A stretch of DNA of 64,000 bases from Escherichia phage SelmaRatti. The stretch lies in sequence record MZ501103; one strand, 5' to 3'. Position 1 is the first letter of the stretch. Each line of letters starts with the position of its first letter. Below the pieces are notes generated by a model that was not told where the DNA came from, made no database searches, and saw only the letters and a program-made list of their open reading frames with translations. Below are positions 25,801 to 31,770 of this stretch, piece after piece. The translations under genes and the position numbers were made by a program.

Positions 25801-25872
25801 GCCGTCCTAGTATAATTGGTATTATCAAGCCGTAACTGGTGGAAGATGTAGGTTCGAATCCTACGGTCGGTA
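25801..25872 (+). pseudogene. tRNA-like element, degenerate (no clean anticodon arm)
   Basis: Perfect T-arm GTAGG-TTCGAAT-CCTAC and 6/7 acceptor pairing, but D and anticodon stems do not fold canonically. Confidence 0.35.
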
Positions 25873-29517: not shown

Positions 29518-29600
29518 GGGTCGTTAGCCAAGTGGTTTGGCGGCGGATTGTTAATCCGTGTCGAAAGACAACGTAGGTTCGATTCCTGCACCCGCTGCCA
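29518..29600 (+). pseudogene. tRNA-Asn(GTT)-like, aberrant (about 14-nt extra segment, non-pairing acceptor)
   Basis: D-arm GCCA/TGGC and anticodon arm GCGGA-TTGTTAA-TCCGT fold well, but 3-prime ACCCGCT does not pair with 5-prime GGGTCGT. Confidence 0.4.
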
Positions 29601-29944: not shown

Positions 29945-29969
29945 ATTAACTCAAAATAAGGAATTGCAA

Positions 29970-30329
29970 ATGCAATTATCAAGCAAGATTCAAGGTTATT
30001 TCGGTCATGTGACAATGGAGTTCGCTATCTCTAAAGGTTGGGATTTCGAGCAAGATCTAGCTGAGTTCTACAAAGATATTGATCTGAACGTACCGTATAT
30101 GGGACTTTCTACTGGTCAGGAGATCACAGAAGCCGATGTATTCAAGGCAAGTCAAGGTGAGATAACACCTAGTTTTGCCACTTTTTGGAGTGGCTTCACA
30201 ATTAAAGAAGAAGCTCCAGATGATGATGTATTTATGCAAAGCATGCACTCTGGGAGTTCTGATATGTTATTTGTTAAAGATGTACGACATATCCAAGAAG
30301 TGGTAAAAACGTATTTGCAAAATGCTTAA
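29970..30329 (+). CDS. hypothetical protein (119 aa)
   Basis: ORF; ATG 29970 after RBS TAAGGAA. Confidence 0.5.
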   Translation: MQLSSKIQGYFGHVTMEFAISKGWDFEQDLAEFYKDIDLNVPYMGLSTGQEITEADVFKASQGEITPSFATFWSGFTIKEEAPDDDVFMQSMHSGSSDMLFVKDVRHIQEVVKTYLQNA

Positions 30330-30876
30330 TTTCTTGTTATAATATTTATATAAATTGATGCGAAAATAGCTGCCTAGATACCAGGTGTATGACGTCTACA
30401 CTAGCAGAGCTACCGAAAAAGAGATCCTCAGGATAAACGTCGTAGCAAAATTAGTCTGGTATCCATCAATTTAGTTCACTAAGGTATTAGCTCGACCTAG
30501 GACTGGCTGCCAAAAAGCACGACCCCTACGACTCGGGAGAAGTTCTAGATTAGTCCACTAGATTCAGCGGCAACTGAATAGTGTATCGGGTTTGTGAAGA
30601 GCGGCTATCCTCTACTGGCTAATGTATGAGGTTAGTACGCACACCGAGCTAATAGCCTTAGTAAACTAAAGAATTTGGGCGAATAGTGTCAGCGGGAGCA
30701 CACCAGACTTGCAATCTGGGAGGGAGGGTTCGAGCCACTCTTTGTCCACCAAATTAAAAAGAATGCGCGCGATTGACGGAATAGGTATACGTGTAAGCCT
30801 TAGAAGTTGAATTTTGAGGGTTCGAATCCCATCGAGGCGTAACTGCCTGGTGTGATAGAGGCATCATCTTATTATT

Positions 30877-30967
30877 GGAAGAGCAAATCGAATTGGCGAC
30901 GAAAACCGCTGGGAAAGTGGCTGACTGGTAAAACGGCTTGAGAGTTCAAATCTCTCCTCTTCCGCCA
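30877..30967 (+). tRNA. type-II-length tRNA-like gene, anticodon unresolved (possibly Ser or Leu)
   Basis: Perfect acceptor GGAAGAG/CTCTTCC and T-arm GAGAG-TTCAAAT-CTCTC with CCA; internal arms not resolved by hand. Confidence 0.45.
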
Positions 30968-30979
30968 AACAATTTATAA

Positions 30980-31074
30980 GGTAGGTCAATCCAACGGCTG
31001 GCGATGGACTCCGACTTGAAATCGGTTGATCGTAGTGATACGGTGTAAGGGTTCGATCCCCTTACCTACCTCCA
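30980..31074 (+). tRNA. tRNA-Ser(TGA)-like, long variable arm
   Basis: Acceptor GGTAGGT/ACCTACC, T-arm AAGGG-TTCGATC-CCCTT, anticodon stem-loop CCGA-CTTGAAA-TCGG, CCA. Confidence 0.55.
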
Positions 31075-31440
31075 AATCTTGAAGTATGCCGGAATCGGTA
31101 GACGGGGCTTCCTAAAGGGCGTAAGGGGAACATCCACTCCTCATAAGATACCCGAAAACGAGGCTGAGATAAATGGTCTATCTCGTGAAGGTTCAAGTCC
31201 TTCTGCTTCTTGATACCTCTATGGCTCAAAGTGTAACGGTGCTATTTGATGCTCTTAGTAAGACTTTCCCGACATGCGTTCGGGGGTAAGCTGCTAAGAC
31301 TAGAGTAGAAGAGTTTCGGAGAGCCGCCACAATTGAAAATTCGTACTCGTCTTGAGCTGCGTGCAATAGGAGATAACTTGATTAGTATTCTAGAACATGC
31401 TAATTGAGGAAGGTTTCTCTAACCCTGCGAGTTTTCAATT

Positions 31441-31531
31441 GTGGCTATATCATAATTGGTTAATGATCCTGATTGTGAATCAGGCCTTCCAAGCCTCGCT
31501 GAGTAGGGTTCGATTCCCTCTAGCAGCTCCA
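31441..31531 (+). tRNA. tRNA-His(GTG)-like with unusually long extra arm
   Basis: D-arm TCAT/ATGA, anticodon arm CCTGA-TTGTGAA-TCAGG, T-loop TTCGATT, CCA; 19-nt variable region and one acceptor mismatch. Confidence 0.45.
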
Positions 31532-31548
31532 ACTTTAAGGAAACATTT

Positions 31549-31770
31549 ATGCACGTTTTTGAGTTTAGTGATAAAAGTAACAATAAACGAGTTATTGTTA
31601 TTGGAGAAACATACCGAGCTTATGAACAAACTGACGGCTCTGTTATCTTGAATGATGAGAAAGCTGGTTTCAGTTTCTATCCTGACGAACCTTATGAAGA
31701 GTTTCGTACTAAGTTTCTTTTACCAGACTGGCTAGCAGTAGCCGAGCAACGAGAATCCAAAGATGGCTGA
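31549..31770 (+). CDS. hypothetical protein (73 aa)
   Basis: ORF with RBS AAGGA immediately after tRNA-like gene. Confidence 0.5.
   Translation: MHVFEFSDKSNNKRVIVIGETYRAYEQTDGSVILNDEKAGFSFYPDEPYEEFRTKFLLPDWLAVAEQRESKDG

What the first reader, a model, noticed from the sequence alone, without database searches (positions are those of the whole stretch)
30340..31440. tRNA-fragment-rich non-coding stretch with unpaired T-arm motifs and a free Ala-type anticodon arm
Seen in sequence: about 1.1 kb downstream of a T5-type promoter has no ORF on either strand. It holds two type-II-length tRNA-like genes I could fold (30877-30967, 30980-31074) plus GGGTTCGA-type T-arm motifs near 30727, 30816 and 31187 for which I found no pairing acceptor strand, an isolated anticodon arm CCAGA-CTTGCAA-TCTGG (Ala-type TGC) near 30696-30712, and a Leu-like D-arm GCCGGAATCGGTAGACGG near 31089. 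Inference: tRNAs with insertions, split or permuted tRNA genes, or unrelated structured RNAs.
Basis: seen in the sequence. Interest (0 to 1): 0.6.

Follow-up and report, generated by a model that had tools for sequence, protein, structure and literature searches.

The report
Phage T5 tRNA and stable-RNA operon
This ORF-free 1.1 kb is the already-described tRNA and small stable RNA gene cluster of T5-like phages (RNA2H, tRNA-Ala, a deletion-damaged tRNA-Leu, two tRNA-Ser, the tRNA-like RNA1, RNAI and RNAIII), so it is ordinary for this phage family, although what the non-tRNA RNAs do is still unknown.

Summary
The window comes from a T5-like (Demerecviridae) phage. Region 30340-31440 is collinear with the curated promoter-P13b unit of T5 (AY692264) and BF23 (NC_042564): promoter, RNA2H, tRNA-Ala, tRNA-Leu1, tRNA-Ser2, tRNA-Ser1, RNA1, RNAI, RNAIII, tRNA-His.

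- The "free Ala anticodon arm" and the T-arm near 30727 are one ordinary tRNA-Ala (30677-30751).
- The two type-II genes are tRNA-Ser2 and tRNA-Ser1.
- The Leu-like D-arm (31089) and the T-arm (31187) belong to one gene, RNA1. RNA1 is a tRNA-Leu-derived cloverleaf whose anticodon loop is replaced by a 48-nt helical extension with an invariant ACAUCCAC loop. Covariation across 24 sequences supports this fold: 14 pairs change on both sides, against 1-2 in slid-partner controls.
- Only the T-arm near 30816 truly lacks an acceptor partner. A 79-nt deletion between two GGGTTCGAATCCC repeats fused tRNA-Leu1 to a downstream tRNA remnant.
- The remaining sequence is RNA2H, RNAI and RNAIII, which are conserved stable RNAs.

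Nothing is split or permuted, and nothing behaves as an intron. The verdict is "already known". The functions of RNA1, RNAI, RNAIII and RNA2H remain unassigned in the database annotations and in the literature I could search.

The parts
30315..30343 (+). Sigma-70 promoter, homologue of T5/BF23 promoter P13b (TTGCAA-17-TATAAT with TG extended -10)
   Evidence: Promoter scan scores 10 of 12 with TG. Window 30292-30360 aligns at 88% to the annotated P13b of T5 and BF23.
30355..30484 (+). 5' leader. It holds about 100 nt that T5/BF23 lack, apparently inserted inside a small leader hairpin (TTGATG...CATCAA). It is conserved in Elw, TrudiRoth, MSP1, GSP044 and S132. Its role is unknown.
   Evidence: Pairwise alignment to T5. 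Six homologues at 97-100% identity. Structure evidence is weak: z = -0.25, and 2 of 35 predicted pairs are compensatory among 7 near-identical sequences.
30485..30657 (+). RNA2H homologue (T5/BF23 note: 'stable RNA with unknown functions')
   Evidence: Coordinates transferred from AY692264. 95.6% identity to T5 RNA2H over its first 113 nt. Invariant 10-bp terminal helix, and 9 of 48 RNAalifold pairs keep pairing through changes on both sides, across 22 sequences.
30677..30751 (+). tRNA-Ala(UGC), contiguous and canonical. It carries a private G.A mismatch in the T-stem.
   Evidence: ARAGORN default and Rfam 43.6 bits. Drawn structure. Best database identity is 96.5%.
30767..30840 (+). tRNA-Leu1(UAG) remnant. 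The 5' part of the gene, up to the T-loop, is fused to the 3' end of a downstream tRNA remnant. The acceptor stem is destroyed. This is the 'orphan' T-arm near 30816.
   Evidence: Rfam gives a partial match only (model positions 8-63, 22.1 bits). ARAGORN calls it only at -ps80. Alignments to MSP1, GSP044, Elw, BF23 and TrudiRoth show the 79-nt deletion.
30818..30830 (+). Deletion junction: the single surviving copy of the 13-nt direct repeat GGGTTCGAATCCC (T-loop core)
   Evidence: The two BLAST segments overlap on exactly these bases. Relatives carry two copies 79 nt apart. No phage record spans the junction in one piece.
30877..30967 (+). tRNA-Ser2(GGA), with G instead of the near-universal U at position 33
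   Evidence: ARAGORN -ps80. There is one difference from BF23 tRNAS2, in the anticodon loop. The homologue is annotated tRNAS2 in T5/BF23. Best database match has 1 mismatch in 106.
30980..31074 (+). tRNA-Ser1(UGA)
   Evidence: ARAGORN default. 100% identical to the copy in phage 3sent1. Annotated tRNAS1 in T5/BF23.
31078..31222 (+). RNA1 homologue (BF23 note: 'tRNA-like RNA with unknown functions').
- acceptor stem 31080-31086 / 31204-31210
- D-arm 31089-31105
- anticodon-stem equivalent 31107-31111 / 31160-31164
- 48-nt extension 31112-31159
- variable-arm hairpin 31166-31184
- T-arm 31187-31203
No 3' CCA is encoded.
   Evidence: Annotated rna1 in AY692264 and NC_042564. ARAGORN intron mode. 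RNAalifold finds 13 of 37 pairs compensatory. My explicit structure gives 93.8% of cells paired against 39-50% when partners are slid, 14 pairs changed on both sides against 1-2, and 0 of 500 shuffles reaching the observed score.
31130..31137 (+). Invariant apical loop ACAUCCAC of the RNA1 extension (the 12-mer GAACATCCACTC, 31128-31139, is invariant in all 24 distinct homologues)
   Evidence: Alignment A2 invariant columns 51-62.
31223..31329 (+). RNAI homologue ('stable RNA with unknown functions'). 5' GGCUC pairs with GAGCC, followed by N-CCA, so the CCA is encoded.
   Evidence: Coordinate transfer. 91.6% identity to T5 RNAI. Found in 305 phage records, nearly all at 90% or higher. Only one compensatory pair, so the internal fold is not established.
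31334..31439 (+). RNAIII homologue ('stable RNA with unknown functions'). Its long terminal helix (31330-31345 with 31426-31441) fills the whole space between the CCA of RNAI and the 5' end of tRNA-His.
   Evidence: 98.1% identity to T5 RNAIII. Found in 282 records, all at 90% or higher. No covariation within the family. An unrelated RNA in the same slot in beppo, MSP1 and PMBT22 keeps a fully paired terminal stem of different sequence.
31441..31531 (+). Just outside the finding, at the end of the same RNA block: a hybrid gene. The tRNA-His 5' part, including its anticodon arm, is fused at the shared heptamer CAGGCCT to tRNA-Gly1 from that gene's anticodon arm to its CCA. At least 0.46 kb is deleted, including both tRNA-Gln genes.
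   Evidence: Pairwise alignments to T5/BF23 tRNA-His and tRNA-Gly1. BLAST segment overlap. Database phages cover it only as two pieces, with the matches spanning about 595-680 nt in the records against 136 nt in the query.

Best explanation
The stretch is the T5-type promoter-P13b transcription unit of the phage's tRNA-rich ('del-1') region. It is a run of RNA genes with no protein-coding gene among them.

Shown here:
- Gene order and sequence match the named T5/BF23 features: RNA2H, tRNA-Ala, tRNA-Leu1, tRNA-Ser2, tRNA-Ser1, RNA1, RNAI, RNAIII, tRNA-His.
- RNA1 is a conserved, covarying cloverleaf most similar to type-II tRNA-Leu. In it, a 48-nt helical extension ending in an invariant ACAUCCAC loop replaces the 7-nt anticodon loop.
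- RNA2H has a conserved terminal helix with compensatory changes.
- RNAI and RNAIII are highly conserved, with tRNA-style or long terminal helices.
- The one truly orphan T-arm is the product of a 79-nt deletion between two copies of the T-loop core.

Inferred from established knowledge of polycistronic tRNA processing in E. coli (RNase P at tRNA 5' ends; RNase E and 3' exonucleases; CCA repair):
- One transcript starts near 30350 and is cut into its parts by host enzymes.
- The tRNAs act as punctuation that defines the ends of the neighbouring stable RNAs. For example, the 3' end of RNAIII would be the RNase P site of tRNA-His.
- RNAI, with its acceptor-like stem plus encoded NCCA, is a plausible RNase P substrate of the hairpin type.
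- Closed terminal helices make the products stable.

RNA1 keeps U8, A14, G18-G19 and the T-loop UUCxA, so it probably folds into a tRNA L-shape and is handled by tRNA-processing enzymes. It has no anticodon loop, no encoded CCA and a U.U first pair. I therefore infer that it does not decode, and that its invariant loop is the working surface for a still-unknown partner. The functional tRNAs supplement translation and, as shown for other T5 tRNAs, can replace host tRNAs destroyed by defence nucleases.
For: - Collinearity with the curated T5 and BF23 annotation, with identities of 82% (RNA1), 92% (RNAI), 98% (RNAIII) and 96% (RNA2H 5' part).
- Promoter.
- No ORF longer than 55 codons. The longest ORF over RNA1 varies from 25 to 48 codons among homologues, and a 1-nt indel separates lineages.
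- tRNA calls.
- RNA1 structure.
- RNA1 relationship to tRNA-Leu: the covariance model's next-best hits are type-II tRNA-Leu genes at 38 bits, and 17 of 19 D-arm bases match T5 Leu1.
- RNA2H covariation.
- RNAI/RNAIII conservation and distribution.
- RNAIII terminal helix retained in an unrelated alternative RNA.
- Deletion junction.
- Literature: the T5 tRNA-rich del-1 region is a hotspot of repeat-associated deletions (PMC12483538). It is dispensable in the laboratory, and its tRNAs counter PARIS and retron Eco7 (PMC11464382, PMC11555353).
Against: - No expression or end-mapping data exist for this phage. That these RNAs accumulate as stable species rests on the notes in the T5/BF23 records, and I could not read the primary papers.
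- The internal folds of RNAI and RNAIII are unsupported by covariation (1 and 0 compensatory pairs).
- No terminator or second promoter was mapped, so 'one transcript' is an inference.
- The processing scheme is by analogy with host tRNA operons.
- The function proposed for RNA1's loop is conjecture. No complementary target was found in the window.
Confidence: 0.9

Rival explanations
1. RNA1 is a true tRNA gene interrupted by a short intron. The 40-41 nt are spliced out to give a decoding tRNA (Leu-UAA or Phe-AAA).
For: ARAGORN in intron mode calls a tRNA with a 40-41 nt insertion in the anticodon loop in all 24 homologues. In the T5 lineage, excision would leave a canonical CUUAAAA Leu(UAA) loop on a Leu-like body.
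Against: - The predicted insertion point (33, 35, 36 or 37) and the anticodon (AAA or UAA) differ between lineages.
- The insertion forms covarying helices with an invariant loop, as expected for part of a mature RNA.
- 40-48 nt is far too short for a group I or II intron, and Rfam finds no intron family even at E = 10.
- Bacteria lack the archaeal/eukaryal tRNA splicing endonuclease (established knowledge).
- No CCA is encoded and the first pair is U.U, unlike every tRNA in the block.
Confidence: 0.04
2. The T-arm, D-arm and anticodon-arm motifs are halves of split or circularly permuted tRNA genes that are joined at the RNA level, as in some archaea and algae.
For: One T-arm (30816) really has none.
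Against: Two of the three T-arms and the anticodon arm lie in contiguous genes found by standard software. The third is explained base for base by a 79-nt deletion relative to five relatives that carry the intact tRNA-Leu1. No complementary leader or trailer sequences and no reversed half order are present.
Confidence: 0.01
3. The non-tRNA stretches (30355-30657 and 31223-31439) are only spacers or decayed tRNA debris, not functional RNA genes.
For: The region is deletion-prone and does hold tRNA debris: the Leu1 remnant, and a tRNA 3' remnant conserved in relatives. RNAI and RNAIII show almost no covariation. The leader's fold is no better than shuffled sequence. The whole tRNA-rich region is dispensable in the laboratory (PMC11464382, PMC11555353).
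Against: RNAIII is 90-99% identical in 282 phages and RNAI is 90% or higher in about 300. Both are more conserved than neighbouring RNA1, which falls to about 78% among the hits listed, with 41 records in the 60-80% band. RNA2H shows compensatory changes and module swaps that keep pairing. The T5/BF23 records label them stable RNAs. An unrelated RNA in the RNAIII slot keeps the terminal helix.
Confidence: 0.05

Closest known systems
RNA1 (rna1) of phages T5 (AY692264) and BF23 (NC_042564), annotated 'tRNA-like RNA with unknown functions'
   Same: It occupies the same position between tRNA-Ser1 and RNAI. It is 82% identical, with the same cloverleaf plus extended anticodon arm, the same invariant GAACAUCCACUC, and no encoded CCA.
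   Different: The window copy belongs to the EPS7/beppo sequence type. Relative to T5 it has compensatory changes in the acceptor stem, the anticodon stem and the extension helices. The small ORF that separates Ser1 from RNA1 in T5/BF23 is absent.
T5/BF23 stable RNAs RNAI, RNAIII and RNA2H ('stable RNA with unknown functions'; rnaIII is also annotated in DT57C)
   Same: Same order, lengths (107, 106 and about 172 nt) and sequences (92%, 98%, and 96% over the 5' part).
   Different: The 3' domain of RNA2H is the alternative module shared with TrudiRoth, MSP1 and EPS7 rather than the T5 one. An extra leader of about 100 nt precedes RNA2H.
T5 RNA2 (rna2), the second annotated 'tRNA-like RNA'
   Same: Same architecture: ARAGORN reads it as a tRNA-like gene with a 48-nt insertion at the anticodon loop and no encoded CCA.
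   Different: The sequence and the inserted arm are unrelated (no ACAUCCAC), and RNA2 is absent from this window.
Deletion mutants of the T5 del-1 / tRNA-rich region (Glukhov et al. 2018, PMID 29512629, as cited in PMC12483538 and PMC11464382)
   Same: The deletions lie inside the tRNA cluster, with end points in short direct repeats: here 13 nt (T-loop cores) and 7 nt (CAGGCCT).
   Different: These are small (79 nt and at least 0.46 kb), leave hybrid tRNA genes behind, and are not found in any of the 50,697 phage records searched. I could not read the 2018 paper itself.
Phage T4 tRNA cluster with its two small stable RNAs (species 1 and 2, RNA C and D); from my own knowledge, not tested here
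   Same: A phage tRNA operon that also yields stable non-tRNA RNAs of unknown function, interspersed with homing endonuclease genes.
   Different: No sequence relationship was tested or is expected. T4 has 8 tRNAs, whereas the T5 group has about 20 or more.
tmRNA tRNA-like domain (it resembles RNA1 in architecture; RNA1 is not a member)
   Same: An acceptor/T-arm module with a long helix in place of the anticodon stem-loop.
   Different: RNA1 keeps a D-arm and a long variable arm. It has no G3.U70, no encoded CCA, no pseudoknots and no tag ORF. Rfam gives no tmRNA match. ARAGORN's only tmRNA call (a permuted tmRNA, 'tmRNAp') came from the relaxed-threshold tmRNA+intron run and maps to window 30718-30967, not to RNA1. 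I regard it as spurious.

Membership tests
T5-type P13b tRNA / stable-RNA transcription unit | Promoter P13b upstream of RNA2H | tested here: met
   30292-30360 aligns at 88% to the annotated P13b of T5 and BF23. The consensus scan scores 10 of 12 with TG.
T5-type P13b tRNA / stable-RNA transcription unit | Gene order RNA2H - Ala - Leu1 - Ser2 - Ser1 - RNA1 - RNAI - RNAIII - His | tested here: met
   Feature-by-feature coordinate transfer from AY692264 and NC_042564. Leu1 and His are present only as deletion-fused remnants.
T5-type P13b tRNA / stable-RNA transcription unit | Sequence homology to the named RNAs | tested here: met
   RNA1 81.9%, RNAI 91.6%, RNAIII 98.1%, RNA2H 95.6% over 113 nt.
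T5-type P13b tRNA / stable-RNA transcription unit | The products accumulate as discrete stable RNAs in infected cells | not testable with these tools
   This rests on the notes in the T5/BF23 GenBank records. No RNA data are available for this phage.
Canonical tRNA (Rfam RF00005 / ARAGORN) | Complete cloverleaf with paired acceptor stem and 7-nt anticodon loop: 30677-30751 (Ala) | tested here: met
   43.6 bits against a gathering score of 29, and an ARAGORN default call. One G.A mismatch in the T-stem.
Canonical tRNA (Rfam RF00005 / ARAGORN) | Paired acceptor stem: 30767-30840 (Leu1 remnant) | tested here: not met
   The Rfam match covers model positions 8-63 only, at 22.1 bits (below 29). ARAGORN's relaxed call has 2 mismatches in the acceptor stem and a truncated 3-pair T-stem. 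The true 3' strand is deleted.
Canonical tRNA (Rfam RF00005 / ARAGORN) | U33 and full-score cloverleaf: 30877-30967 (Ser2) | tested here: inconclusive
   Acceptor, D, variable and T arms fold, and CCA is encoded, but position 33 is G. Rfam scores it 24.7 bits (below 29) and ARAGORN calls it only at a relaxed threshold. The BF23 note says this tRNA could not be turned into an amber suppressor.
Canonical tRNA (Rfam RF00005 / ARAGORN) | 7-nt anticodon loop and 3' CCA: 31078-31222 (RNA1) | tested here: not met
   48 nt lie between the two strands of the anticodon stem, no CCA is encoded, and the first pair is U.U. There is no RF00005 match even at E = 10.
Intron-containing tRNA gene | A recognisable intron (group I/II core, or bulge-helix-bulge) and a conserved anticodon after excision | tested here: not met
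   No intron family in Rfam at E up to 10. The length is 40-48 nt. The predicted excision point and anticodon vary between lineages. I did not search specifically for a bulge-helix-bulge motif.
Split or permuted tRNA genes | Separate 5' and 3' halves (or a 3' half upstream of a 5' half) that pair to rebuild one cloverleaf | tested here: not met
   All motifs lie in contiguous genes or in a remnant explained by a mapped deletion.

The most novel reading that the evidence does not exclude
RNA1, together with T5 RNA2, represents a distinct class of phage tRNA-derived effector RNAs. It would be a tRNA-Leu(UAA) descendant that keeps the L-shape so that host tRNA enzymes process and stabilise it. 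Its anticodon loop has been replaced by a covarying helix that presents an invariant ACAUCCAC loop. In this reading RNA1 acts as a decoy, sponge or guide against a host tRNA-binding factor or a tRNA-directed defence system, matching the counter-defence role already shown for neighbouring T5 tRNAs. RNAI and RNAIII could be further effectors of the same kind. None of this has been tested in any source I could access.
Probability: 0.2. Interest if true: 0.6.

Novelty: already known. Interest (0 to 1): 0.2.

Why it matters
For the genome scan, the finding is explained. A region that looks like scattered tRNA fragments is a known, named RNA gene cluster of T5-like phages, plus one tRNA gene damaged by a deletion. 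Three points have practical value.

First, default tRNA finders and Rfam miss five of the nine RNA genes here. Several GenBank records also place 'hypothetical protein' CDS over RNA1, RNAI and RNAIII, so Demerecviridae annotation is systematically incomplete in this region.

Second, the covariation analysis gives solid comparative support for the RNA1 fold, for its descent from tRNA-Leu, and for the terminal helix of the RNAIII slot.

Third, RNA1, RNAI, RNAIII and RNA2H are conserved in hundreds of phages, yet I found no function assigned to them. They sit in a region now known to carry counter-defence tRNAs, which makes them reasonable candidates for functional screens.

Tried and rejected
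- **Rfam at E up to 10 over 30250-31600:** only tRNA-clan matches and noise.
- **IMG/VR scan with the bare 14-mer GGAACATCCACTCC:** mostly chance hits.
- **Two-part pattern in bacterial genomes:** 12 hits, about the number expected by chance, and none scores with the RNA1 covariance model. RNA1 stays confined to T5-like phages, including the Klebsiella Sugarlandvirus phage examined (vB_Kpl_K32PH164C1).
- **Target complementary to the invariant RNA1 loop in the window:** 4 matches against 3.5 expected, and the only perfect one is RNA1 itself.
- **Structured-RNA test of the extra leader (30355-30484):** z = -0.25, not supported.
- **Mini-ORF inside RNAIII (UUG AUU AGU ... UGA after an AGGAG):** the three substitutions seen among homologues are all non-synonymous by my reading of alignment A4, so there is no sign of a conserved peptide.
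- **'tRNA genes are decaying while stable RNAs are intact':** rejected as stated, because private mismatches also occur in RNA2H (6), RNAI (2) and RNAIII (1).
- **ARAGORN low-threshold 'tmRNAp' and a reverse-strand 'tRNA-Val' with a 543-nt intron:** spurious.
- **Literature:** no paper in the searchable library assigns a function to these RNAs. Glukhov et al. 2018 is not held.
Full report
**What the window is.** A megablast of 30300-31560 finds 522 phage records, nearly all Salmonella, Escherichia and Klebsiella phages of the family Demerecviridae, that is, T5-like phages. The segment 31075-31215 is 100% identical to phages beppo, Sepoy and EPS7.

**Checking the observation.**
- The quoted motifs are all present.
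- A strong promoter lies at 30315-30343: TTGCAA, 17 nt, TATAAT, with TG before the second hexamer.
- Between 30340 and 31440 the longest ORF on either strand is 55 codons.
- ARAGORN at default settings finds tRNA-Ala(tgc) at 30677-30751 and tRNA-Ser(tga) at 30980-31074. It also finds an odd 91-nt tRNA-His at 31441-31531.
- Rfam's gathering thresholds confirm Ala at 43.6 bits.

The 'isolated Ala-type anticodon arm' and the T-arm near 30727 are therefore parts of one ordinary tRNA-Ala, whose acceptor stem GGGCGAA/TTTGTCC pairs normally. At a relaxed threshold ARAGORN adds Leu(tag) at 30767-30838 and Ser(gga) at 30877-30967. With intron mode on, it joins the 'Leu-like D-arm' (31089) and the 'orphan' T-arm (31187) into one 132-nt tRNA-like gene, 31080-31211, with 41 extra bases in the anticodon region.

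**The region is already named.** In T5 (AY692264) and BF23 (NC_042564) the counterpart of 31078-31222 is annotated 'rna1: RNA1'. The curated records give this map:

promoter P13b → RNA2H → tRNA-Ala → tRNA-Leu1 → (HNH endonuclease in T5) → tRNA-Ser2 → tRNA-Ser1 → small ORF → RNA1 → RNAI → RNAIII → tRNA-His

The BF23 notes describe RNA1 as a 'tRNA-like RNA with unknown functions', and RNAI, RNAIII and RNA2H as 'stable RNA with unknown functions'. Transferring coordinates by pairwise alignment gives the following:

| Element | Window coordinates | Identity to T5 |
|---|---|---|
| P13b | about 30295-30360 | 88% |
| RNA2H | 30485-30657 | 95.6% over the first 113 nt |
| RNA1 | 31078-31222 | 81.9% |
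| RNAI | 31223-31329 | 91.6% |
| RNAIII | 31334-31439 | 98.1% |

The two adjacent tRNA-Ser genes were cloned and sequenced in 1983 (Kryukov et al., cited in PMC4810235). The flanking ORFs at 29964-30329 and 31549-31770 belong to conserved phage families of unknown function, phrog_7572 and phrog_5598.

**The one truly orphan T-arm.** Alignments to MSP1, GSP044, Elw, BF23 and TrudiRoth show that the window lacks exactly 79 nt. The missing segment lies between two direct copies of GGGTTCGAATCCC. One copy is the T-loop core of tRNA-Leu1. The other is the T-loop of a tRNA 3' remnant that all these relatives carry downstream. TrudiRoth has the intact parent gene, 98.7% identical on the 5' side, with acceptor GCGCGAT/GTCGCGC followed by A-CCA. 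The window keeps GCGCGAT but has lost the partner strand, and it also carries a C-to-A change that breaks an anticodon-stem pair. No record among 50,697 phage genomes spans this junction in one piece. This fits what is known of the region: the T5 tRNA-rich 'del-1' segment is described as a hotspot of repeat-associated deletions (PMC12483538), and it is dispensable in the laboratory (PMC11464382, PMC11555353).

**RNA1.** I collected 24 distinct homologues from 18 annotated phage loci and from T5-like IMG/VR contigs.
- RNAalifold, without guidance, predicts the acceptor stem, a long anticodon arm, a variable-arm hairpin and the T-arm. In 13 of 37 pairs both sides change and pairing is kept.
- My explicit cloverleaf of 38 pairs has 93.8% of cells paired, against 39-50% when the 3' partners are slid by 1-3 columns.
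- 14 pairs change on both sides, against 1-2 in the slid controls.
- The covariation score is 0.283, against at most 0.074.
- No shuffle out of 500 reaches the observed values.
- The Klebsiella phage copies have a completely different acceptor-stem sequence that still pairs at 6 of 7 positions.

The 48 nt between the strands of the anticodon stem (31112-31159) form two further helices separated by internal loops. They end in an 8-nt loop, ACAUCCAC (31130-31137), and the 12-mer GAACATCCACTC is invariant in all 24 sequences. U8, A14, G18-G19 and the T-loop UUCxA are conserved, so an L-shaped fold is likely.

A covariance model built from this alignment scores RNA1 at 142-168 bits. Its next-best hits are type-II tRNA-Leu genes at about 38 bits. 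17 of 19 D-arm bases match T5 tRNA-Leu1.

Unlike every tRNA in the block, and unlike RNAI, RNA1 encodes no CCA, and its first pair is U.U. ARAGORN's 'intron' falls at position 33, 35, 36 or 37, and the 'anticodon' is AAA or UAA depending on lineage. Only the T5 lineage would retain a canonical CUUAAAA loop. I read this as descent from a tRNA-Leu(UAA), not as a spliced decoding tRNA.

T5's second tRNA-like RNA, RNA2, has the same design with a 48-nt insertion, but it is absent from this window. The two-part pattern scans add 25 viral contigs, all from T5-like genomes of about 96-121 kb apart from the 14.5-kb BF23 tRNA-region record. They also give 12 bacterial hits, which are at chance level and do not score with the model.

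**The other RNAs.**
- *RNA2H.* It has an invariant 10-bp terminal helix. In 9 of 48 predicted pairs, pairing is kept through changes on both sides. Whole hairpin modules are exchanged between lineages.
- *RNAI.* It is at least 90% identical in about 300 phages. It ends in a tRNA-like way: 5' GGCUC pairs with GAGCC, followed by N-CCA. Only one pair covaries, so its internal fold is not established.
- *RNAIII.* It is 90-99% identical in 282 phages and shows no covariation. In beppo, MSP1 and PMBT22 the same slot holds an unrelated RNA of about 122 nt. That RNA has the same outer inverted repeat, CAATTGA...TCAATTG. Its inner terminal stem has a different sequence but is fully paired, 17 bp against 16 bp. 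The helix that fills the space between RNAI's CCA and the 5' end of tRNA-His is therefore the conserved feature.
- *The extra leader.* The roughly 100 nt at 30361-30462, absent from T5/BF23, is conserved in six other phages, but evidence for structure is weak.

**How it most likely works.** What is shown here is the gene content, the conservation, the RNA1 and RNA2H structures, and the deletion. The rest is inferred from established knowledge of bacterial tRNA operons. A single P13b transcript would be cut by host RNase P, RNase E and 3' exonucleases. The tRNAs would act as punctuation that sets the ends of the stable RNAs, and the closed terminal helices (plus NCCA in RNAI) would make the products stable. 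RNA1 probably borrows the tRNA processing and stabilisation route while presenting its invariant loop to an unknown partner. I found no complementary target in the window and no published function.

**Comparison and verdict.** The stretch is a member of the T5-type P13b tRNA/stable-RNA unit. The three sequence-level defining features (promoter, gene order, homology) are met. Only the accumulation of the RNAs in vivo could not be tested. It is not a set of split or permuted tRNAs, and RNA1 fails the tests for both a canonical tRNA and an intron-bearing tRNA.

The finding is already known, and interest is low for that reason. The residual interest lies in the unexplained, strongly conserved RNA1, RNAI, RNAIII and RNA2H, which sit in a region now known to supply counter-defence tRNAs (PMC11464382, PMC11555353; see also PMC13056530 for cleavage of a T5 tRNA-Ala by a bacterial Schlafen nuclease).

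Noticed in passing
window 31441-31531: The 91-nt 'tRNA-His' is a hybrid. The T5-type tRNA-His 5' part, through its whole anticodon arm, is fused at the shared heptamer CAGGCCT to tRNA-Gly1 from that gene's anticodon arm to its CCA. At least 0.46 kb is lost, including both tRNA-Gln genes and a small ORF. The Gly anticodon arm now sits where a long variable arm would be, and the discriminator is U rather than C73. Database phages never show this junction in one piece.
   Followed up: yes
window 30877-30967 (position 33 of tRNA-Ser2, about 30911): The near-universal U33 is G (loop UGGGAAA against UUGGAAA in BF23). The best of 257 database matches still has one mismatch, so the change appears private to this genome. 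It could be a damaging mutation, a sequencing error, or an anticodon-loop variant under selection.
   Followed up: partly
window 30677-30751: tRNA-Ala carries three private substitutions relative to its closest relatives, which are 96-96.5% identical. One of them turns a T-stem G-C pair into G.A.
   Followed up: partly
L006:2256-2384 (beppo), L001:1912-2039 (MSP1), L010:2755-2882 (PMBT22), compared with window 31330-31441: The RNAIII slot has an alternative occupant: an unrelated core of about 122 nt with the same outer inverted repeat (CAATTGA...TCAATTG) and a fully paired terminal stem of different sequence. It looks like cassette exchange of small RNAs between RNAI and tRNA-His.
   Followed up: partly
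alignment A5 columns 40-77 and 130-180 (window 30485-30657 and homologues): RNA2H exists in at least three modular versions. One hairpin is replaced by a longer one in beppo, S132 and PMBT22. The 3' domain has two alternative sequences, and both keep pairing.
   Followed up: partly
L015:2492-2636 and L014:2492-2636 (Klebsiella T5-like phages; L015 is classified as Sugarlandvirus): RNA1 lies in a different gene context in both: in L015 it follows tRNA-Val and is not next to tRNA-Ser or RNAI. Its acceptor stem has an entirely different sequence, yet its core is about 90-93% identical to the window copy. That is closer than T5's RNA1.
   Followed up: partly
L004:63-187 (T5 RNA2): T5's other annotated tRNA-like RNA has the same design as RNA1: a tRNA-like gene with a 48-nt insertion at the anticodon loop and no encoded CCA. 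Its inserted sequence is unrelated. RNA2 and RNAIV are absent from this window.
   Followed up: partly
window 29518-29594 and 25801-25872: Two further Rfam tRNA matches (41.1 and 35.5 bits) that ARAGORN does not call at default. The first has a GTT anticodon loop and an unusually long extra region. The second is weak.
   Followed up: partly
L010:2487-2714 (PMBT22), L014:2432-2560 (Klebsiella K7_rec15), and records SB10, VSe12, Sw2, 3-29, NG_S8 and STWB21: Several GenBank records annotate 'hypothetical protein' CDS directly over RNA1, RNAI or RNAIII. Given the RNA-level conservation, and an open frame over RNA1 that varies from 25 to 48 codons, these are probably misannotations.
   Followed up: partly
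relatives L001:832-943, L005:2002-2113, L018:1893-2017: All relatives examined carry a tRNA 3' remnant (T-arm plus a 3' strand, with no recognisable 5' half) between tRNA-Leu1 and tRNA-Ser2. In T5 an HNH endonuclease gene lies between Leu1 and Ser2. The remnant may be an older deletion or homing scar, and it supplied the second repeat for the window's 79-nt deletion.
   Followed up: no
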